DNA of 64,000 nucleotides from an uncultured Nitrososphaerota archaeon (GTDB taxonomy: Archaea > Thermoproteota > Nitrososphaeria > Nitrososphaerales > Nitrosopumilaceae): contig OY969559.1 in assembly GCA_963701075.1 (NCBI GenBank), positions 1,472,001 to 1,536,000 on the forward strand, read 5' to 3'. The notes under the pieces were generated by a model. The model worked only from the letters and a program-made list of their open reading frames with translations. It did not search any database and was not told the origin of the DNA. Below, piece after piece: positions 39,957-46,831 of this stretch (position 1 is its first letter; each line of letters starts with the position of its first letter). A program made the translations under genes and the position numbers.

Positions 39957-40943
39957 TTGAAAAAAACTGCATATCTTCTGATAGCATTAATTTTTGTATC
40001 AAGTATGACAATAAGTTCGTCAACTAACGCGGTTGCACAACAAACACCTACAAATAATTTTAACACAATTAATTATCCTAGCGCCACTAATACATTTGCT
40101 CTTGGAATAAACAATGCTGGTCAGATAGTTGGGTATTATTATAACAGTCAAGAGAACTACCACGGCTTTCTACTCTCATCTGGTAACTATACCTCAATTA
40201 ATTACCCCGGTGCCAGTAGTACGACTGTTCTTGGAATTAACAATGCTGGTCAGATAGTTGGATATTATTATGATAATTCAGGGCACCTCCATGGCTTTCT
40301 ACTATCGTCTGGCAACTATACCTCAATTGATTACCCAGGTGAAAATAGTACATCGGCTTTTGGAATTAACAATGCGGGTCAGATAGTTGGAAATTATATT
40401 GATAGTTCAGAACATTTCCATGGCTTTCTACTCGCGTCTGGCAACTATACCTCAATTGATTACCCCGGTGAAAATAGTACCGCTCCTTATGGAATTAACA
40501 ATGCGGGTCAGATAGTTGGAAATTATATTGATAGTGTGGGACACTACCACGGCTTTCTACTCGCGTCTGGCAACTATACCCCAATTGATTATCCCGGTGA
40601 AAATAGTACCGCTCCTTATGGAATTAACAATGCTGGTCAGATAGTTGGATATTATTATAACAATCTAGAGAATAACCACGGCTTTCTACTCTTGTCTGGC
40701 AACTATACCTCAATTGATTACCCAGGTGCGAATAGTACAGCTGCTTTTGGAATTAATAATGCCGGTCAGATAGTTGGAAGTTATTACGATGATTCAGGAC
40801 ACTACCACGGCTTTCTACTCTCGTCTGGTGAGACTATACAAACTACTCCTGAATTTGGCCCTGTTGCCCCAATCATACTTGGCATTTCAATTCTGTCAAT
40901 AATTATTTTATCGGTCAGAACTAGATTCTTACACAGATCCTAG
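39957..40943 (+). CDS. Secreted HAF-like repeat beta-propeller protein with PEFG-CTERM anchor
   Basis: Signal peptide, six 43-aa repeats (GINNAGQIVG...HGFL), then PEFG, a TM segment and a basic tail. Confidence 0.88.
   Translation: MKKTAYLLIALIFVSSMTISSSTNAVAQQTPTNNFNTINYPSATNTFALGINNAGQIVGYYYNSQENYHGFLLSSGNYTSINYPGASSTTVLGINNAGQIVGYYYDNSGHLHGFLLSSGNYTSIDYPGENSTSAFGINNAGQIVGNYIDSSEHFHGFLLASGNYTSIDYPGENSTAPYGINNAGQIVGNYIDSVGHYHGFLLASGNYTPIDYPGENSTAPYGINNAGQIVGYYYNNLENNHGFLLLSGNYTSIDYPGANSTAAFGINNAGQIVGSYYDDSGHYHGFLLSSGETIQTTPEFGPVAPIILGISILSIIILSVRTRFLHRS
40059..40829 (+). repeat. Intragenic tandem repeat, 6 x ~129 bp
   Basis: Six copies of ggaat(t/a)aa(c/t)aatgcNggtcagatagttgg spaced about 129 nt apart. 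Confidence 0.92.
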
Positions 40944-41117: not shown

Positions 41118-41471
41118 ATGCAAGGCTCAAGTGCACTAGATAATTACGATTTAAAAAGAGCACATCAAGCTCTAAAAATGCTGCTTATTGATAGAAGTAA
41201 TGAATTTCGCCTTTTTGCTCGAGGAATTGGGTATCCGACTAACACAAAAGACTGGGAATTAATAGTCCTGAATTTTTGTCTTGATTATATAGAATGTTTC
41301 CATACGTGGACTGCCGATGATCCGCCAGACCATCACCATATCCACAAGTGCATGACACAGATGAGACAGATGGCTAGAGGAAAATCAACCATGACTGAAG
41401 TCACACATCTTCAGAATACCGCATATCTAATTGCAGAGGATTTTAAAGCAATTTACAAGAGAATAGAATAG
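41118..41471 (+). CDS. Hypothetical protein
   Basis: 117-aa ORF with a TATA-like element about 25 nt upstream. Confidence 0.7.
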   Translation: MQGSSALDNYDLKRAHQALKMLLIDRSNEFRLFARGIGYPTNTKDWELIVLNFCLDYIECFHTWTADDPPDHHHIHKCMTQMRQMARGKSTMTEVTHLQNTAYLIAEDFKAIYKRIE

Positions 41472-41473
41472 TA

Positions 41474-41525
41474 GAACCCTTTTAGAAATTCAACGTTGTA
41501 ATGATATGTTTTCTTTTTAGAGCAA
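41474..41525 (-). pseudogene. cas1: cas1/casposase 5' remnant (cassette 3), frameshifted
   Basis: Minus strand ttg-ctctaaaaagaaaacat-atcattacaacgttgaatttctaaaagggttc aligns to the other two remnants (...HYNVEFLKG). Confidence 0.6.
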
Positions 41526-41538
41526 GATTTACTCTTTT

Positions 41539-41721
41539 TTATCTAGTGAGATAGAAACAATTCCATTTCATATGAGGAATAGATTGCATACTAGGCTGCG
41601 CACAATGTAGGATGTAATGCGCTGGCATATGGGGCGTTACAAGTAAATGTACTGTAGCAATTGTGATTCCAATTCCAACTAGTACTGAAATTATTGTTAT
41701 TGCAATAACTGATTTATTCAT
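41539..41721 (-). CDS. Small single-TM protein (cargo of cassette 3)
   Basis: N-terminal TM; lies between the shared promoter motif and the cas1 remnant. Confidence 0.6.
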   Translation of the reverse strand: MNKSVIAITIISVLVGIGITIATVHLLVTPHMPAHYILHCAQPSMQSIPHMKWNCFYLTR

Positions 41722-41808
41722 AATATAATTACGTCAGTATTGATCTTAAACTATCTTTAAATCATAACGTGTCTATTACGTGAGTTGAGAACTTTTGTTC
41801 GTAAAGTT

Positions 41809-41867
41809 GGGGTTTTTATTTTTGCTTGCTGTCTACAAAAAGACAGCCCCATCAGGCCTAGAAATTT
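41809..41867. repeat. Cassette junction: GGGG-N34-CCCC with degenerate copy of the aEF-2 3' end (TIR-TSD-TIR-like)
   Basis: ggggttt-ttatttttgcttgctgtctacaaa resembles ggggtttactatttttactctttatctacaaa at 44625-44656; then ccccatcaggcctagaaatt resembles the reverse complement of 44606-44628. Confidence 0.7.
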
Positions 41868-41893
41868 CCGTATGACTTGCAGTCACGTTGTGG

Positions 41894-42124
41894 TTAATCT
41901 CCTTTTTTTCCTCTGAGCAGTTCTGACATGTCACCTAAAAGGTAAATGAATCCTATTGCAAACATTGTACCTGAAATCATCAGTAATGCAAAACCTAGAA
42001 AATCAACTTGAGAGTAATTTTCAATATTGGCGCCATTTAGATAGTTCCATGATTCGTAAAGCCCAACTATTGATACCGTGGTCAGAATAATTTCAAACAG
42101 CATTGTTTTTCCTGTCATGGTCAA
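41894..42124 (-). CDS. Small 2-TM hypothetical protein
   Basis: Two hydrophobic segments. Confidence 0.6.
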   Translation of the reverse strand: MTMTGKTMLFEIILTTVSIVGLYESWNYLNGANIENYSQVDFLGFALLMISGTMFAIGFIYLLGDMSELLRGKKGD

Positions 42125-42167
42125 AATATTCCTCTTTCTTTTTCTTCCAAGTCCATAATCTGTTCTT

Positions 42168-42350
42168 CTACTGACTTATATTGACATTCTCGTATGACAT
42201 ATTTTTGCCATACCATTCTTCGATCTCAGGTTCTTTGAATGAGTCGGTGGTATTTTTGAGAACAATGTTTGAATCTTTTACGTTTATTGAAAAACCGTAG
42301 CCCTTTAGGAATTTTATATTGTAATAATTTCGTTTTTCTATCTGTGTCAT
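42168..42350 (-). pseudogene. cas1: cas1/casposase 5' fragment (cassette 2)
   Basis: MTQIEKRNYYNIKFLKGYGFSINVKDSNIVLKN...EPEIEEW..NMSYE matches the N-terminus I recall for thaumarchaeal stand-alone Cas1; truncated at 60 aa. Confidence 0.75.
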
Positions 42351-42358
42351 AAATAAAA

Positions 42359-42760
42359 TTATTCCAACAATTTGCCGGTGACGGCACCAACAAAATTAAT
42401 TTGACTACCATGTTCGCTACTTATTGAAAAATAACATTCCCAAGTGACTTCCCAGACATACTCGTTATTCTCGTGATTCTTAAATGGAGAGGCAATAGCC
42501 AAAGACATATCCTTCATAGTTCTTTCATCTACGGCAAACAGAGTATCGTTTTTTACATGAAGTAAGTGTATGCCTACATTACGTAATTCATTAGGACTAT
42601 TGTCTGCACAAAGAGATCTCTGCATGGCAACGTCAAACGCTTTCTGTTTGGATAAAAAATGTGGATTTCCAAGATAGTCAAAGAGAATCAACAGTCCGCT
42701 GATTATGCCGATTGAAAAAATAACAATTGTTGCAACAGTAATTGGTTTTTTTCTCATCAC
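42359..42760 (-). CDS. Membrane-anchored PepSY-like protein (cargo of cassette 2)
   Basis: N-terminal TM; LSKQKA..VA, YVWEV and VGAVTGKLL (a D-A-x-T-G-like motif). Confidence 0.65.
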   Translation of the reverse strand: MMRKKPITVATIVIFSIGIISGLLILFDYLGNPHFLSKQKAFDVAMQRSLCADNSPNELRNVGIHLLHVKNDTLFAVDERTMKDMSLAIASPFKNHENNEYVWEVTWECYFSISSEHGSQINFVGAVTGKLLE

Positions 42761-42853
42761 ATGACATTACTTTCGTAATGATTTAACCACTTTCCAACAA
42801 ATCCCACGACCATAATGACTCTAGGTATGACGCCTTTTCATGATGTCAGCGGC

Positions 42854-42913
42854 GGGGATTGCATTTTTGTAGACAAAGTAAAAATGTTTTACCCCTGTTT
42901 TACTCGTAGAAAT
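42854..42913. repeat. Cassette junction: GGGG-N34-CCCC, with the aEF-2-end-like core inverted
   Basis: tttgtagacaaag--taaaaat-gttttacccctgttttactcgtagaaat vs aEF-2 sense end tttgtagataaagagtaaaaatagtaaaccccccgtttaggcgtggaaat. Confidence 0.72.
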
Positions 42914-42960
42914 ATGTTATTGTCGCAAAACTTTAGAAGATTAGAAAATAATCAAATTCA

Positions 42961-43884
42961 ATGAATGTCATAATAGTGGTTGGAATCTGTCTGTTGATGG
43001 CATTCTCTTGTTCCAATCTTGTTTTTGCACAAAAAGTTCTCACAAATCCCAATATTACAGCCACGACTGACAAATCATCCTACATCTTTGGTGATACAAT
43101 TGTAATTTCTGGCACTGTTAAAACTGTTCTACAGGGAAATATTATGACCATCCAAATTTTAGATCCCTATAGTAATTTAATTCAGACAGCACAGGGTAGC
43201 GTTGCTCAAGATGGCTCTTATGCAGACGCTGTGGAGATAGCCGGCACTGGGTGGAAATCAAGTGGTGTTTATACAGTTCTAGTTCAATATGGTTCTGAAG
43301 TTCAAACCCAAACAACTTTTGCATTTACGGCAACAACGGCTCCGATCAATGATACATTCCAAGTACAAATTCCAAATAATAGTCAGATCTTTAATGTGCC
43401 ATATACAATATTCGGAGGATCAGTGACGAACATGTCTGTTAATGCCTTGAATCCTTCTCTGACTGTATCCATACTACCAGTTAATTACGGCACAATTACA
43501 CTTTCGCTCCCACGGTCTTTGCTTGATGCAAAGACAAGTAATGGTACGGACGAACCGTTTACCATCTTAATTGATGGTATACAAATTATACCACAAAAAG
43601 AACAAGTGACTTCAAGTGATAGAACTTTGTCAATACAGTTCCTGCGAGGAGATAAAAATATCCAAATTATTGGTACCAGTGTGACACCTCAAAATAATTC
43701 TACTATTAACACGCCAAGCACAAATTTGACCACAAGTCAACAACCATCCGCACAAGTCACTAACATGTCAAAACCTATTTCGGCAGTACCTGAATTTCCT
43801 AATGGAATAATCCCCTTTATAGCTGCATTAATCGTCATGGTTGTACTTACAAGAACTACGTTTAGACAAATAATTAGGACATGA
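42961..43884 (+). CDS. Secreted PEFG-CTERM-type surface protein
   Basis: Signal peptide, TDKSSY..GD, LPRSLLDA and F.ILIDG thaumarchaeal domain, then VPEFP, TM and a basic tail. Confidence 0.85.
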   Translation: MNVIIVVGICLLMAFSCSNLVFAQKVLTNPNITATTDKSSYIFGDTIVISGTVKTVLQGNIMTIQILDPYSNLIQTAQGSVAQDGSYADAVEIAGTGWKSSGVYTVLVQYGSEVQTQTTFAFTATTAPINDTFQVQIPNNSQIFNVPYTIFGGSVTNMSVNALNPSLTVSILPVNYGTITLSLPRSLLDAKTSNGTDEPFTILIDGIQIIPQKEQVTSSDRTLSIQFLRGDKNIQIIGTSVTPQNNSTINTPSTNLTTSQQPSAQVTNMSKPISAVPEFPNGIIPFIAALIVMVVLTRTTFRQIIRT

Positions 43885-43918
43885 TTCTAAAGTTATGAAC
43901 GAGTCAATGCCGATCTCT

Positions 43919-44065
43919 TTAAATTATTTCGAGAAAACTGAAGTGTGAATTGAATGGGTCAGATGTATTTTTGAGAAATATTTTAGAGTTTTTTACGTTT
44001 ATTGAAAAGCCGTAGCCTTTTAGGAATTTTACGTTGTAGTGATTTTGTTTCCCTTTAAGAGTCAA
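43919..44065 (-). pseudogene. cas1: cas1/casposase 5' fragment (cassette 1; not in ORF track)
   Basis: The TTG start overlaps the upstream stop; MTLKGKQNHYNVKFLKGYGFSINVKNSKIFLKNTSDPF is 27/38 identical to 42168-42350. Confidence 0.78.
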
Positions 44066-44532
44066 TTTGGATGTAATACGATTGAAACGAATCCATAAGT
44101 TAGAAGACCCATGCCGAGAATTTCAAAAAATACTACTATGATTATCCATTTTGCTTGTTTGAATTCGTCTTCCGTCACTCTCTTTCTGCCAATAGAAATG
44201 TAATACACAAACCAAATCATGTCTATGCAAACTATCATTCCACCAAGCGAATATTTGCCAAGGTCACTAACAGCTACTAATCGAAAAGATGCGATAGTAG
44301 GCACAATTCCAAGAATCAAAACTTCCATGGATTCGATTAGATAATGATTTACCTTTGGGATACGTCTTACAAAAATCAAAAATAAACCAAAGACAGAGAA
44401 GCCAATGACAGTAACAAGATCTTTCCATTCTTGATCTAGTTTCAAATATGCGTCAAAAACAGCACGTAATAGAATGAATAATGCCGTAACCAGCAATATG
44501 GTAATAACTATGGAACGTGGCTTGAGTTTCAC
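44062..44532 (-). CDS. Multi-pass membrane protein (cargo of cassette 1)
   Basis: About 5 TM segments; GTG start. Confidence 0.7.
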   Translation of the reverse strand: MKLKPRSIVITILLVTALFILLRAVFDAYLKLDQEWKDLVTVIGFSVFGLFLIFVRRIPKVNHYLIESMEVLILGIVPTIASFRLVAVSDLGKYSLGGMIVCIDMIWFVYYISIGRKRVTEDEFKQAKWIIIVVFFEILGMGLLTYGFVSIVLHPN

Positions 44533-44538
44533 AGAGTT

Positions 44539-44578
44539 ATTACTTTTATCATGATCTTAAATCATTTCCAACAAATCA
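44539..44578 (-). promoter_or_regulatory. Cassette promoter-like motif (BRE/TATA), repeated at 42766-42803, 41728-41764 and 38459-38501
   Basis: gatttgttggaaatgatttaagatcat...aaagtaat; the exact 13-mer tttccaacaaatc occurs at 44565 and 42791; TATA-like tttaag lies about 25 nt upstream of each cargo start. Confidence 0.65.
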
Positions 44579-44638
44579 TACTTTCGTTATTACCTAGTTA
44601 GCTTCAATTTCCACGCCTAAACGGGGGGTTTACTATTT

Positions 44639-46831
44639 TTACTCTTTATCTACAAACTCATCTGCTGTCGGAGGTTCTGGACTGAGACCCTTTCTCTTTC
44701 TAAGATCAGCCACGATGGTTGACAGGATAGAGTTTGGAACTGGCGTCCATGCCTTAAAGTGAGTGTTCCACATTGCTTTTCCTGCAGTCTGCCCACGCAT
44801 TACCTCAGACAAGTCAAATGTTTCAGATGCAGGAATCTCTCCAGTGATAATATTTACAACACCTTTTTGTTCCATGTTTAGAACCTTGCCCCTCTTTCCT
44901 GATATGACACCTGCTACGTTGCCAATGAGTTCTTGCGGAATCCTGACCTCAATTCCAAGTGTTGGCTCTAGCAGTACTGGTTGAGCAAGCAACATTGCAC
45001 CCATGCATGCACGCCTTGATGCAGGTCCTAGTTGTGACAGACCTCGGTGTGCCGGGTCTTCGTGTGGTACAAAATGATGGAATGTAAACTTGCATCCCCT
45101 TACCTGTTCTCGAGTAAGTGGGCCTTCCTTCATGGTATCATCAAATCCTGAAAGTATAGAATCGGTTGATTCCTGAACAAACTGGACACCTTTTGTGCCG
45201 TCAACCATAACATTTCCTCTGGGATCAAACCTCATCACACGTTTTGCGTCGTCTCCGTCCCAGCCGACTTCTTTCAATATCTTTTGTACTTCCTTCTTGT
45301 CTTTGTATTCATTTAGTGTGCCGTTTCTTATCATCTCAGCTACCTTCTCGTCGAGCGGTTCTACTTTCAGAAATATCTTGTTGTGTCTGTTAGGTGATTT
45401 TGCCATGATAGGTCCTGCAGAACCACGAATTGTCTCCCTATAATTTATCAAAGGTTGCGAAGTGACAATATCCACTTTGGCATCTGCAATCAATGCTGTT
45501 GCAATCTCAAGGTGAAGCACACCCATGCCGGCAATCACAGTCTCTCCGCTTTCCTCGTTTATCTTTACGACCAAGTTGGGGTCTTCAATTGTAATTCTGT
45601 TTAGTGCCTCGACAAGTTTTGGCAAGTCTTTTGGATGTTTTGGTTCTACTGCAATTTGCACAACTGGTTCGGACACATACTGGATTCCCTCAAATGTATG
45701 AACGCCTGCTACTGTAGATATTGTCTGGCCTGCCCTTGCATATTCCAATCCCAAAAGTGCCGGAATGTTTCCTGCTGCAAGTTCTCCTACCATCTCTCGC
45801 TGGTTGCCCATGAAAAAGTTGACAGACTGGATTCTTCCCTCTCGTTTTGTATCAATGATATGAATCCTGTCACCATCTTTTATCTTGCCAGAAAATAATC
45901 TCCCTATTGCCACAGGACCAGCGGCCGGGTCAACTGTCATGTTTACAATCATCATTATGGCAGGGCCATTATCGTCACAACTGAGCAGTGCCTTTCCAAT
46001 GTCAGAGTCAAGATCACCTTTCCAAATCTTTGGAATTCTATACCTTTGTGCAACGTCAGGCGGTGGATGATGTTTTACTACCATTCCAAGAACTGCATCA
46101 TATAGCGGAGCCTTTTCTGCAAGATCCTTGACACTTCCGCCCTCAGAATAGGCAGCAAAAATATCTTTGAATGATATTCCTTTTTTCTTCATCACGTCGG
46201 CATTAAATCCCCACTTGTCCTTGGCAGAACCAAATGAGACGCTACCGTCCTGAATGCTTACTTTCCACTTTTCCTTGTATTCAGGTTCTGCATAAATGTC
46301 AATTAGCCTGTTAAAGTTGGTCACAATCTCAAGCAGCCATTCCTGCATCTTGTCAGGTGTTAATCTTAATTCCTTTATGAGACGGTCAATCTTGTTGATA
46401 TAAAGTACTGGTCGCACCCTCTCTTCTAGCGCTTGGCGGGTTACTGTCTCGGTCTGGGTCATGATACCCTCTACAGAGTCAGATACCACAACTGCCCCAT
46501 CAATTGCCCTAAGGCTTCTAGTCACACGGCCAGTAAAGTCAATGTGACCTGGAGTATCAATCATGTTGATGACATATTCTTGATCATCTTTTTCATAGAG
46601 TAGAGTAACATTTGCCTGCACGATGGTCATCTGCCTGTCTTGCTCCAATTTCATCGAGTCAAGTGCAAGCGCCTGTCCTGCCACAGATGGACTGATGATA
46701 CCGCTTGATGCAAGAAGACTATCACTCATTGTAGTTTTGCCGTGATCTACATGAGCTATCACACCAAAATTTCTGATGTGGCTCTTGTCTCCAATAATTT
46801 TGAGAATCTGCTCAGTCGCCTTAAATTTCAT
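44639..46831 (-). CDS. fusA: Translation elongation factor aEF-2
   Basis: AHVDHGKTT, DTPGH, NKID and the diphthamide loop HEDPAHRG. Confidence 0.98.
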   Translation of the reverse strand: MKFKATEQILKIIGDKSHIRNFGVIAHVDHGKTTMSDSLLASSGIISPSVAGQALALDSMKLEQDRQMTIVQANVTLLYEKDDQEYVINMIDTPGHIDFTGRVTRSLRAIDGAVVVSDSVEGIMTQTETVTRQALEERVRPVLYINKIDRLIKELRLTPDKMQEWLLEIVTNFNRLIDIYAEPEYKEKWKVSIQDGSVSFGSAKDKWGFNADVMKKKGISFKDIFAAYSEGGSVKDLAEKAPLYDAVLGMVVKHHPPPDVAQRYRIPKIWKGDLDSDIGKALLSCDDNGPAIMMIVNMTVDPAAGPVAIGRLFSGKIKDGDRIHIIDTKREGRIQSVNFFMGNQREMVGELAAGNIPALLGLEYARAGQTISTVAGVHTFEGIQYVSEPVVQIAVEPKHPKDLPKLVEALNRITIEDPNLVVKINEESGETVIAGMGVLHLEIATALIADAKVDIVTSQPLINYRETIRGSAGPIMAKSPNRHNKIFLKVEPLDEKVAEMIRNGTLNEYKDKKEVQKILKEVGWDGDDAKRVMRFDPRGNVMVDGTKGVQFVQESTDSILSGFDDTMKEGPLTREQVRGCKFTFHHFVPHEDPAHRGLSQLGPASRRACMGAMLLAQPVLLEPTLGIEVRIPQELIGNVAGVISGKRGKVLNMEQKGVVNIITGEIPASETFDLSEVMRGQTAGKAMWNTHFKAWTPVPNSILSTIVADLRKRKGLSPEPPTADEFVDKE

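What the first reader, a model, noticed from the sequence alone, without database searches (positions are those of the whole stretch)
41474..44656. Tandem array of casposon-derived gene cassettes stacked at the aEF-2 3' end
Seen: reading the minus strand from the aEF-2 stop, the same module occurs three times: C-run terminal sequence, ~50 nt, shared promoter motif, an unrelated small membrane gene (156, 133, 60 aa), then a cas1 5' stub (44065, 42350, 41525). Units 1 (~42.88-44.64 kb) and 2 (~41.84-42.87 kb) also keep a second gene and a matching inverted end. Known: thaumarchaeal family-1 casposons (Nitrosopumilus) insert at the 3' end of aEF-2, and CRISPR repeats are proposed to derive from casposon target duplications. 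Inference: repeated site-specific insertion followed by loss of cas1/polB has built a polarised array of 1-2 kb non-autonomous mini-casposons. Target-derived 'repeats' separate gene-sized 'spacers', like an integron or proto-CRISPR gene-capture locus. The farthest cas1 stub is the most decayed, as expected if new units insert next to aEF-2.
Basis: partly seen in the sequence, partly recalled or inferred. Interest (0 to 1): 0.9.

Follow-up and report, generated by a model that had tools for sequence, protein, structure and literature searches.

The report
Decayed casposon stack behind aEF-2
Three worn-down copies of a Cas1-driven self-replicating transposon (a casposon) sit one behind another at the end of the elongation factor 2 gene of a soil ammonia-oxidising archaeon; it is a clear but not fundamentally new example of repeated insertion at one site followed by decay.

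Summary
Behind the aEF-2 stop there are three casposon left ends, each with a promoter-like block, a small membrane-protein gene and the first 19-59 codons of a casposase (Cas1) gene. Two right ends are also kept.

The two unit boundaries read right end, 11 or 13 nt copy of the aEF-2 target, left end. This composite occurs nowhere else in the 1.9 Mb genome and in none of 5 shuffles.

The aEF-2 end still carries the published family-1 target: TTT leader, 13-bp duplication, ATAA at positions 5-8.

The genome has no intact casposase or casposon polymerase. The best reading is serial site-specific insertion followed by deletion and rearrangement in place.

This state is common in the family. Of 61 aEF-2 loci, 11 hold a full casposase and 13 hold N-terminal stubs only.

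- The two ends of each unit match only at family-consensus level (11-12 of 18, against 16-17 of 17 in intact elements).
- The unit 1/2 spacer is an inverted target copy.
- Mobility of the small units, and an integron-like function, are not shown.

At least the oldest unit's genes are under purifying selection.

The parts
44639..46831 (-). aEF-2 gene (730 aa). Its last bases form the casposon target: leader TTT at 44656-44654 and the 13-nt duplicated segment GTAGATAAAGAGT at 44653-44641, with ATAA at positions 5-8.
   Evidence: ORF. Sequence read. Target rules are from PMC8464041 (abstract and passages).
44552..44640 (-). Unit 1 left end. The terminal inverted repeat AAAAATAGTAAACCCCCC (44640-44623) starts inside the TAA stop. 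It is followed by a conserved block ATGATTTGTTGGA and a TATA-like TTTAAG 29 nt before the start codon.
   Evidence: Class-B end profile built from relatives, E 1.2e-16. The same end lies next to aEF-2 in G204, G220, G221, G201 and G226 at 84-92%. That it is a promoter is inferred; no RNA data.
44062..44532 (-). Unit 1 small gene, 156 aa, five hydrophobic segments. Its stop overlaps the cas1 stub start.
   Evidence: No Pfam or NCBIfam family. No homologue in the 60 other aEF-2 loci or the 19 casposase loci L003-L021 searched.
43946..44065 (-). cas1 stub 1: casposase codons 1 to about 40, then unrelated sequence and a stop.
   Evidence: N-terminal casposase profile E 8.2e-19. tblastn E 3e-14.
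42961..43884 (+). Unit 1 cargo gene, 307 aa. It has a hydrophobic N-terminal segment and a C-terminal PEF-plus-membrane-anchor tail, and reads inward from the right end.
   Evidence: At least 15 paralogues in the own genome. The gene plus this end is a recurring block in G204 (92% nt), G221, G225 and G208.
42880..42941 (+). Unit 1 right end (class A type). The terminal repeat is at 42895-42880 (minus-strand reading GGGGTAAAACATTTTT).
   Evidence: Class-A end profile E 1.4e-09. 83-87% identical to the aEF-2-adjacent ends of G032 and G141 in reverse orientation.
42869..42879 (-). Junction 1/2 spacer, 11 nt ACTTTGTCTAC. It is an inverted copy of the aEF-2 target; its reverse complement is GTAGACAAAGT.
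   Evidence: The orthologous junction in G204 is also inverted. A second inverted case is in G120.
42768..42868 (-). Unit 2 left end: terminal repeat AAAAATGCAATCCCC (42868-42854) plus the promoter-like block.
   Evidence: Class-B end profile E 1.4e-08.
42359..42760 (-). Unit 2 small gene, 133 aa, one N-terminal hydrophobic segment.
   Evidence: A homologue lies directly upstream of an intact casposase gene in L017 (E 6e-13) and upstream of a stub in G109 (E 5e-10).
42174..42350 (-). cas1 stub 2: casposase codons 1-59.
   Evidence: Profile E 5.8e-25..
41894..42124 (-). Unit 2 cargo gene, 76 aa, one hydrophobic window at the KD 1.6 cut-off.
   Evidence: The fusion of stub 2's 3' part to this gene is shared by G121 (85% nt) and G169 (83%) downstream of their aEF-2.
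41837..41850 (+). Unit 2 right terminal repeat (minus-strand reading GGGGCTGTCTTTTT).
   Evidence: Composite regex. Profile support is weak (E 0.08).
41824..41836 (-). Junction 2/3 spacer, 13 nt GTAGACAGCAAGC. It is a direct copy of the target: 9/13 to the present aEF-2 end and 10/13 to the GTCGACAGCGAGT form of relatives. The ATAA ruler is lost.
   Evidence: The identity counts were made by eye from those outputs.
41745..41823 (-). Unit 3 left end: terminal repeat AAAAATAAAAACCCC (41823-41809) and a decayed promoter block with TTTAAG at 41750-41745.
   Evidence: Class-B profile E 0.085, weak. The promoter part aligns with G141.
41539..41721 (-). Unit 3 small gene, 60 aa, one hydrophobic segment.
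   Evidence: 85% aa identity to the G141 orthologue, dN/dS 0.16. A homologue sits between promoter and an 86-aa stub in G226.
41462..41518 (-). cas1 stub 3: about 19 codons, frame not kept in G141.
   Evidence: Profile E 2.7e-4. blastn to the G188 stub 87% over 46 nt, E 1.5e-07. Alignment with indels against G141.
41118..41471 (+). 117-aa gene convergent on stub 3. No right end was found, so it may be unit 3 cargo or flank.
   Evidence: 90% aa identity to G141, dN/dS 0.07. Two paralogues in the own genome.

Best explanation
This is a stack of three (possibly more) decayed family-1 casposons at the 3' end of aEF-2.

Inferred steps:
- A casposase, encoded by each incoming element, integrated the element at the target TTT + 13 bp at the end of aEF-2. 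The 13 bp were duplicated on both sides.
- The copy next to aEF-2 stays under selection because it encodes the last four codons and the T of the stop. The site therefore remains a good target, and later elements tend to land between aEF-2 and the older ones.
- Deletions then removed almost all of cas1, the polymerase gene and the other core genes.
- At least one inversion or end exchange followed.

What remains is the aEF-2-side end with the cas1 promoter, a small gene inserted between promoter and cas1, and a short cas1 5' stub. In units 1 and 2 a cargo gene next to the far end also remains.

The units are now fixed chromosomal DNA. This genome has no casposase to move them. Some of their genes are kept by selection as ordinary host genes for membrane or surface proteins.
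For: Shown:
- Three cas1 N-terminal stubs and nothing else Cas1-like in the window.
- The stubs match the starts of intact Cas1-family casposases in relatives.
- Two junctions read right end + 11 or 13 nt target copy + left end. They are unique in the genome and absent from 5 shuffles.
- Six full casposons in relatives (G010, G140, G136, G101, G054, G112) show the same junction, with a 13-nt direct target copy and the next left end behind it.
- The aEF-2 end has the TTT leader, the 13-bp segment and ATAA at 5-8 that the N. koreensis family-1 casposase requires in vitro (PMC8464041). Neither internal copy keeps ATAA.
- Empty sites in other genera lack the A-run/C-run end after the stop: G038, G048, G001, G006, G007, G019.
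- The own genome has only a CRISPR-linked cas1. tblastn with a relative's casposon proteins found the two stubs and that cas1, and no polymerase.

Pattern across 61 loci:
- 11 have a full casposase, 5 reading away from aEF-2 and 6 toward it.
- 13 loci have 16 N-terminal stubs. All read away from aEF-2, start at codon 1 (one match begins at codon 12) and break at codons 20-86.
- Only 2 other fragments were seen.
- This fits erosion that spares the side anchored on the essential gene.

Inheritance:
- Unit 3 is shared with G141 at 85% nt.
- The stub 2-76 aa fusion is shared with G121 and G169 at the same locus.
- The inverted junction 1/2 is shared with G204.

Contigs from runs of two soil-metagenome studies carry the junctions unchanged (two of the four runs may be the source sample).
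Against: - The break points cluster in the first 86 codons of a gene of about 350 codons. Neutral erosion explains this only if each remnant was whittled while it lay next to aEF-2, which was not tested.
- Units 1 and 2 keep right ends, so they need internal deletions rather than erosion from one side.
- Their left and right ends are of different sequence types (12/18 and 11/18 against 16-17/17 in 6 of 6 intact elements). So each 'unit' may join ends of two different elements.
- The inverted target copy at junction 1/2 is not produced by simple integration.
- The middle stub is better preserved than the proximal one.
- Pieces of the units lie on contigs without aEF-2 in G225 and G220. This could mean movement as well as rearrangement.
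Confidence: 0.8

Rival explanations
1. Units 1 and 2 are natural non-autonomous mini-casposons. On this reading they are internally deleted elements of 1.0-1.8 kb with both ends. A casposase supplied by a full element (since lost, or in a co-resident cell line) integrated them as small units and may have re-integrated them as a pair.
For: - Both units are bounded by left and right ends with target copies.
- The family-1 casposase integrates artificial 1-4 kb mini-casposons with 20-bp ends and tolerates varied end sequences in vitro (PMC8464041).
- The inverted internal target copy, flanked by two direct ones, is what re-insertion of a tandem pair in the opposite orientation would give. Recombination between its outer ends would give the same. 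A second case exists in G120.
- The '307-aa gene + end' block occurs in either orientation and in first or second position in G208, G221 and G204, and on a contig without aEF-2 in G225. The 76-aa block lies on a contig without aEF-2 in G220.
Against: - No second copy of either unit in the own genome.
- No casposase in the genome.
- The end pairs do not match.
- The stub 2-76 aa junction and junction 1/2 are inherited at the same locus in relatives.
- No case of the same small unit with fresh duplications at two sites was found.
- Searches for natural mini-casposons in print found only artificial constructs.
Confidence: 0.12
2. The locus is a selected gene-capture platform, integron-like or proto-CRISPR. 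On this reading the host keeps the target and the conserved end promoter in order to acquire and express small membrane and surface protein genes delivered by casposons.
For: - Each unit places a different small membrane-protein gene behind the same conserved promoter-like block, 27-29 nt before the start codon.
- The small gene is swapped between otherwise similar ends in relatives: 156 aa here, about 88 aa in G221, none in G201 and G206, a 60-aa-type gene in G226.
- Unit 3's genes show dN/dS of 0.16 and 0.07 against G141.
- 42 of 60 loci with enough sequence carry a casposon end at the stop.
Against: - No dedicated recombinase, and no evidence that cassettes are captured singly; they arrive as parts of casposons.
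- Expression is untested.
- The units differ in size and content, and ends decay.
- Many relatives keep only an end or a stub.
- The pattern is explained by a selfish element reusing a protected target.
Confidence: 0.05
3. Chance or ordinary host repeats: the similarity of junctions and stubs comes from AT-rich intergenic sequence or from a duplicated host promoter, with no casposon origin.
For: - The single-end pattern (A-run, spacer, C-run) is as common in shuffled genomes as in the real one.
- Stub 3 and unit 3's end are weak (E 2.7e-4 and 0.085).
Against: - Stubs 1 and 2 have E 8e-19 and 6e-25.
- The composite junctions are unique in the genome.
- The ends hit profiles built from other genomes.
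- The same anatomy bounds full casposons in relatives.
Confidence: 0.01

Closest known systems
Family-1 (thaumarchaeal) casposons such as NitAR1-C1, integrated at the 3' end of aEF-2 (PMC4046053, PMC8464041; passages read)
   Same: - Same target gene end, 13-bp duplication, TTT leader and ATAA ruler.
- Terminal inverted repeats.
- A Cas1 without extra domains as integrase, seen in relatives' full copies, which also carry a family B polymerase (PHROG DNA polymerase E 8e-59).
   Different: - Here no intact cas1, no polymerase and none of the shared core genes remain.
- Only ends, a promoter block, small genes, cas1 5' stubs and end-proximal cargo are left.
- The units are 1.0-1.8 kb, against 3.2-8.8 kb, measured from the stop to the right-end junction, for the six bounded elements in relatives.
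Tandem casposons NitNF5-C1/C2 at ef-2 of Ca. Nitrosopumilus adriaticus (PMC6563490; sections read)
   Same: Re-use of the same aEF-2 target, with elements separated only by the duplicated target.
   Different: - The published pair are described and mapped as two casposons with their cas1 and polymerase genes.
- Here there are three units, all decayed, one internal target copy is inverted, and the ends of a unit do not match.
Tandem arrays with an inactivated copy, and solo-TIRs, of casposons in Methanosarcina, mainly the family 2 elements of the IR1 site (PMC4779613; passages read)
   Same: - Repeated use of one site.
- Decay of older copies, and remnants that outnumber full elements.
- Comparison to Tn7 islands and to the origin of CRISPR repeats.
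   Different: - A different casposon family and target.
- The remnants there are described as bare end sequences or near-full copies with a broken polymerase gene, not gene-bearing 1-2 kb units with cas1 stubs.
CRISPR arrays (leader-proximal integration by Cas1-Cas2)
   Same: - A Cas1-family integrase duplicates a short target next to a fixed 'leader'.
- This gives repeats that separate inserts, and the newest insert tends to be proximal.
   Different: - The inserts are kilobase gene-bearing elements with their own ends.
- The repeats are 11-13 nt and decaying.
- There is no transcript-processing or interference role.
- The genome's real CRISPR-Cas locus lies about 400 kb away.
Integrons and Tn7 attTn7 islands
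   Same: Site-specific stacking of gene-bearing units downstream of a conserved gene. Each unit has its own or a shared promoter logic.
   Different: - No integron integrase or attC sites were looked for or seen.
- The units are transposon remnants, not single-gene cassettes excised and re-inserted by a resident recombinase.

Membership tests
Family-1 casposon (autonomous element) | Intact casposase (Cas1, PF01867) gene | tested here: not met
   Only N-terminal stubs of about 19, 40 and 59 codons. Pfam finds no Cas1 in the stub ORFs. The only PF01867 match in the genome is the CRISPR-linked cas1.
Family-1 casposon (autonomous element) | [quoted passage not shown] | tested here: not met
   tblastn with the 629-aa polymerase of the G010 casposon found nothing in the own genome at E <= 0.1. 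That protein is a DNA polymerase by PHROGs (E 8e-59) and motifs. Pfam, NCBIfam and PDB sequence searches did not name it.
Family-1 casposon (autonomous element) | Terminal inverted repeats that match each other | tested here: inconclusive
   Inverted ends of the family type are present for units 1 and 2. They match only 12/18 and 11/18, against 16-17/17 in 6 of 6 intact elements.
Family-1 casposon (autonomous element) | Insertion at the aEF-2 3' end with a 13-bp target duplication, TTT leader and ATAA at positions 5-8 | tested here: met
   The aEF-2 end reads TTT|GTAGATAAAGAGT followed by the left end. Internal copies are 13 nt (direct) and 11 nt (inverted). The rule is from PMC8464041.
Non-autonomous mini-casposon (MITE-like derivative) | Small element with both ends, no transposase, flanked by direct target duplications | tested here: inconclusive
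   Both ends are present and the integrase is lost. However, unit 1 and unit 2 are each flanked by one direct and one inverted target copy.
Non-autonomous mini-casposon (MITE-like derivative) | Several copies, or the same unit at different sites | tested here: not met
   No second copy in the own genome. In 40 other genomes of the genus only parts recur, mostly at the aEF-2 locus. Parts on contigs without aEF-2 in G225 and G220 were not resolved.
CRISPR array | Regular short repeats, short spacers of similar length, adjacent cas genes | tested here: not met
   The 'spacers' are about 1.0 and 1.8 kb with genes, and the repeats are 11-13 nt plus decaying ends. The cas genes are about 400 kb away.
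Integron | intI tyrosine recombinase with attI, and cassettes ending in attC | not tested
   No search for intI or attC was run. Pfam gave only weak sub-threshold matches, none to a recombinase family, for the 8 ORFs of the units and flank that were scanned.

The most novel reading that the evidence does not exclude
Units 1 and 2 are natural mini-casposons: small cassettes bounded by terminal repeats that carry one or two membrane or surface protein genes behind the conserved cas1 promoter. On this reading they are moved in trans by casposases of full elements. They can also move as composite pairs, and the inverted internal target copy here and in G120 would be the scar of such a move. The aEF-2 end would then work as a polar, Cas1-driven gene-cassette array in ammonia-oxidising archaea.
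Probability: 0.12. Interest if true: 0.8.

Novelty: new variant of a known kind. Interest (0 to 1): 0.45.

Why it matters
Casposons are the proposed source of the CRISPR adaptation machinery. The step from 'transposon that re-uses one target' to 'array of repeats and inserts' is usually argued from a few tandem pairs and bare end remnants.

This locus and its relatives add three things:
- In one archaeal family the aEF-2 target is occupied in most genomes examined.
- Insertions stack and decay into short units bounded by target copies.
- Some of the delivered genes, for membrane and surface proteins, are then kept by selection.

This gives a natural series of old and young junctions. On that series the published in vitro target rules can be tested, and the fate of Cas1-made arrays can be followed. 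It is not a new kind of system.

Tried and rejected
1. Pfam on the stub ORFs and small proteins gave no family at its thresholds. The stubs were identified instead by genome search and a custom N-terminal profile.

2. NCBIfam named none of the unit proteins.

3. A loose 13-mer scan for the promoter block (2 mismatches) gave 160 hits against 77-90 in shuffles. It was too permissive and was dropped in favour of profiles.

4. I looked for a second class-A end between stub 1 and the 307-aa gene, as G204 seems to have. The alignment is poor in the window, so this is not claimed.

5. I tried to derive unit 1 from a G221-like arrangement by one inversion. It explains the inverted target copy and the mixed end types, but not the direct contact with unit 2's left end. 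It is left open.

6. Nested sharing of units with relatives as a clock for polarity holds only partly. The unit-1-type left end is also found in relatives about as distant as G141.

7. Sequencing runs: no RNA holder is listed, so nothing can be said on expression.

8. In contigs of four soil-metagenome runs (two studies; two runs may be the source sample) no joint skips a unit and no empty site appears. Contigs drop rare variants, so this is no evidence against excision.

9. Literature searches for natural non-autonomous or mini-casposons and for casposon islands in ammonia oxidisers found only artificial constructs and the papers cited. One preprint on AOA flexible genomes does not mention EF-2 or Cas1. 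Supplementary files were not seen and may list remnants.

11. No structure, complex or atlas tool was used. The question did not need them.

Full report
WHAT IS THERE

The window is part of a single-contig 1.92 Mb genome. Its DNA is held by soil-metagenome runs. aEF-2 lies at 44639-46831 on the minus strand. Reading on from its stop I find three units.

Each unit starts with a short terminal repeat: an A-run, 4-6 variable bases and a C-run. These lie at 44640-44623, 42868-42854 and 41823-41809. About 45-50 nt further there is a conserved block (ATGATTTGTTGGA in units 1 and 2, decayed in unit 3). It is followed by a TATA-like TTTAAG or GTTAAA 27-29 nt before the start codon of a small gene.

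The small genes encode 156, 133 and 60 aa, with 5, 1 and 1 hydrophobic segments. The small gene abuts the first codons of a casposase gene. The overlap is 4 nt in unit 1; there are gaps of 8 nt in unit 2 and about 20 nt in unit 3.

Units 1 and 2 go on with a cargo gene. Unit 1 carries a 307-aa predicted surface protein with a PEF-type C-terminal anchor, on the other strand. Unit 2 carries a 76-aa membrane protein. Both units close with an inverted terminal repeat (42895-42880, 41850-41837).

IS IT MORE THAN CHANCE?

A profile of the first 95 residues of ten full casposases from relatives was run against all 2503 six-frame segments of the window. It hit only the three stubs, with E 5.8e-25, 8.2e-19 and 2.7e-4. 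The next hit had E 3.3.

The single-end pattern is not significant by itself: 156 sites in the genome against 123-159 in shuffles. The composite 'right end, 9-15 nt, left end' is significant. It occurs only at the two unit boundaries in 1.9 Mb and never in 5 shuffles.

End profiles built only from other genomes hit unit 1's left end (E 1.2e-16), unit 2's left end (1.4e-08) and unit 1's right end (1.4e-09). Unit 3's left end and unit 2's right end are weak (0.085 and 0.08).

WHAT THE STUBS ARE

The 60-aa stub 2 matched 67 of 201 genomes of the family. That tally includes two unpublished genomes. About two dozen matches lie at the start of open frames of 331-394 aa. Fifteen such frames were read. 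Two were checked and are Pfam Cas1 (E 4.9e-49, 1.2e-46).

In G010 a full element lies directly behind aEF-2. It is bounded by a perfect 17-nt inverted repeat and carries the casposase and a 629-aa protein. That protein is a DNA polymerase by PHROGs (E 8e-59) and has Exo I-III and motif B signatures. Pfam, NCBIfam and PDB sequence searches did not name it. That it is of the protein-primed kind is taken from PMC4046053.

THE TARGET

In six full elements of relatives the right end is followed by exactly 13 nt that repeat the last 13 nt of aEF-2 (up to the T of the stop), and then by the next left end.

This agrees with the in vitro rules for the N. koreensis family-1 casposase: a 13-bp duplication, a minimal TTT leader, and ATAA at positions 5-8 as a ruler (PMC8464041, abstract and passages).

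The window's aEF-2 end reads TTT|GTAGATAAAGAGT and then the left end, so the target is intact. The end starts inside the TAA stop.

Genomes of other genera without remnants have unrelated sequence after the stop (6 of 20 loci). Across 60 loci with at least 50 nt of downstream sequence, 42 carry the A-run/C-run end at the stop. Every same-genus locus with readable downstream sequence starts with the A-run, and nearly all show the C-run. In this genus the site is essentially always occupied.

HOW COMMON THE DECAYED STATE IS

I oriented 61 aEF-2 downstream regions: the window plus 60 relatives, up to 16 kb each, many cut by contig ends.
- Eleven loci hold a full casposase within reach. Five read away from aEF-2 and six toward it.
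- Thirteen loci hold 16 N-terminal stubs. All read away from aEF-2, start at codon 1 (one match begins at codon 12) and break at codons 20-86.
- Only two other fragments were seen (G200, G114).
- Five full elements are followed by a further left end. In three of them an older stub follows as well (G010, G101, G112).

So 'full element plus older remnant' and 'remnants only' are ordinary states of this locus in the family.

Proposed cause of the stub pattern (inference). Deletions cannot cross into the essential aEF-2 gene. Whatever lies next to it is therefore whittled from the far side. If the cas1 side happened to be proximal, the terminal repeat, the promoter, the optional small gene and a short cas1 5' piece survive. 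If the other side was proximal, only a bare class-A end remains, and many loci show exactly that.

HISTORY OF THIS ARRAY
- Unit 3 (promoter, 60-aa gene, stub 3, 117-aa gene) is shared with G141 at 85% over 719 nt. G141 has different DNA between it and aEF-2.
- Against G141 the two unit 3 genes have dN/dS of 0.16 and 0.07, at dS 0.42 and 0.65. The aEF-2 3' part gives 0.03 at dS 0.78. The stub between them has indels. So the genes are kept and the stub is dead.
- The fusion of stub 2's 3' part to the 76-aa gene is shared with G121 and G169 downstream of their aEF-2.
- A homologue of the 133-aa gene sits directly upstream of an intact casposase in another genome (L017) and upstream of a stub in G109.
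- The unit-1-type left end lies next to aEF-2 in G204, G220, G221, G201, G226 and G121 (84-92%). The gene between promoter and stub differs: 156 aa here, about 88 aa in G221, none in G201 and G206, a 60-aa-type gene in G226.
- The 307-aa gene with its class-A end is a recurring end module. It is first and reading outward in G208. It is second in G221, next to polymerase and cas1 C-terminal fragments. It is in the window's orientation in G204 (92%).

WHAT DOES NOT FIT A SIMPLE STORY

(i) The 11-nt spacer between units 1 and 2 is an inverted copy of the target. Its reverse complement GTAGACAAAGT matches the aEF-2 end apart from one change and a 2-nt gap. The spacer between units 2 and 3 is direct. 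G204 has the same inverted junction. An independent case is in G120, with 12 of 13 matching in inverted orientation. Altogether 2 of 9 recognisable junctions are inverted.

Three routes could produce this:
- A flip of the short loop between two inverted ends.
- Recombination between the outer ends of a tandem pair.
- Re-insertion of a pair in the other orientation.
I could not choose among them.

(ii) In 6 of 6 intact elements the two ends are 16-17 of 17 identical, each element with its own core. In units 1 and 2 they are 12/18 and 11/18, no better than ends of different units. Unit 1's left and right ends are of two different, widespread types. So a 'unit' may join the ends of two elements.

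(iii) The middle stub is the best preserved.

IS ANYTHING STILL MOBILE?

The genome has one Cas1-family gene. It lies beside cas2 and cas4 homologues about 400 kb away. tblastn with a relative's casposon proteins found only that gene and the two long stubs, and no polymerase. The genome is 95% complete by markers.

Contigs of four runs from two soil studies carry the junctions with no change (two of the runs may be the source sample).

VERDICT

The core inference, repeated site-specific insertion followed by loss of cas1 and polB, is well supported. The claims of matching ends, of arrival as mini-elements and of an integron-like function are not supported.

Tandem casposons, inactivated copies and end remnants are already in print for other casposons, and a tandem pair at ef-2 is in print for family 1 (PMC4779613, PMC6563490). 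I therefore rate this a new variant of a known kind. The features not found described in print by my searches (supplements unseen) are:
- Gene-bearing 1-2 kb remnants with cas1 stubs.
- Near-universal occupancy of the target in this archaeal family.
- Inverted internal target copies.
- Retention of delivered genes under selection.

Noticed in passing
window 39957-40943 (+): A 328-aa protein made of HAF repeats (NCBIfam TIGR02913, E 6.5e-30) with a PEFG-CTERM sorting tail. The gene has a 129-nt internal periodicity. One metagenome contig (run X3) skips 387 nt (3 repeats), so repeat number varies in the population.
   Followed up: partly
own genome C1:1648590-1648659 (+), outside the window: A class-A casposon end (profile E 6.5e-09, the best in the genome). 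It is preceded by about 24 nt that look like the 3' end of an aEF-2 gene of another lineage (reads ...NEFIDKE). It lies 132 kb from the real aEF-2 and on the other strand. Similar detached 'aEF-2 end + casposon end' junctions occur in G225 and G204.
   Followed up: partly
own genome C1:584600-584647 (-), outside the window: A casposon-type end (profile E 2.1e-05) placed exactly at the stop of a 507-aa gene whose start looks like GMP synthase (recalled, not tested). The stop is again completed by the end's A-run. This suggests a second casposon target gene in this genome.
   Followed up: partly
own genome C1:196910-196985 and 197456-198801, outside the window: A copy of the unit-1-type promoter block (79% over 75 nt) with two weak end-profile hits nearby (E 4-5). 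This is possibly a third remnant locus.
   Followed up: no
own genome C1:1911908-1915765 (L001): A CRISPR-Cas adaptation cluster: cas1 (PF01867, E 1.6e-71), then ORFs that look like cas2 and cas4, and an upstream helicase-like ORF. Only cas1 was tested; the other names are by eye.
   Followed up: partly
own genome, at least 10 dispersed sites (for example C1:334860, 452714, 476386, 1443968): An identical repeat of about 56 nt (starting GGCATTTCTTAACATTACTGG...) followed by different sequence at each site. It looks like the end of an insertion sequence or miniature element.
   Followed up: no
relatives: G121:C14 and G121:C37; many other MAG contigs: Many assemblies break within 1 kb downstream of aEF-2 (for example G121, G151, G176, G035, G161, G194). 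G121 has two contigs that both carry the aEF-2 3' end with different downstream DNA. This fits strain-level variation at this locus.
   Followed up: no
L066 (G120:C30), about 4.17 kb after the aEF-2 stop: A second, independent junction with an inverted 13-nt target copy (12 of 13 to its own aEF-2 end in reverse orientation). It lies between two stub-bearing units.
   Followed up: partly
window 41118-41471 (+): The 117-aa gene beside stub 3 has two paralogues elsewhere in the genome (62% and 49% aa identity). It has weak sub-threshold Pfam hits to an immunity-protein-like family (Imm5_like, E 0.02).
   Followed up: no
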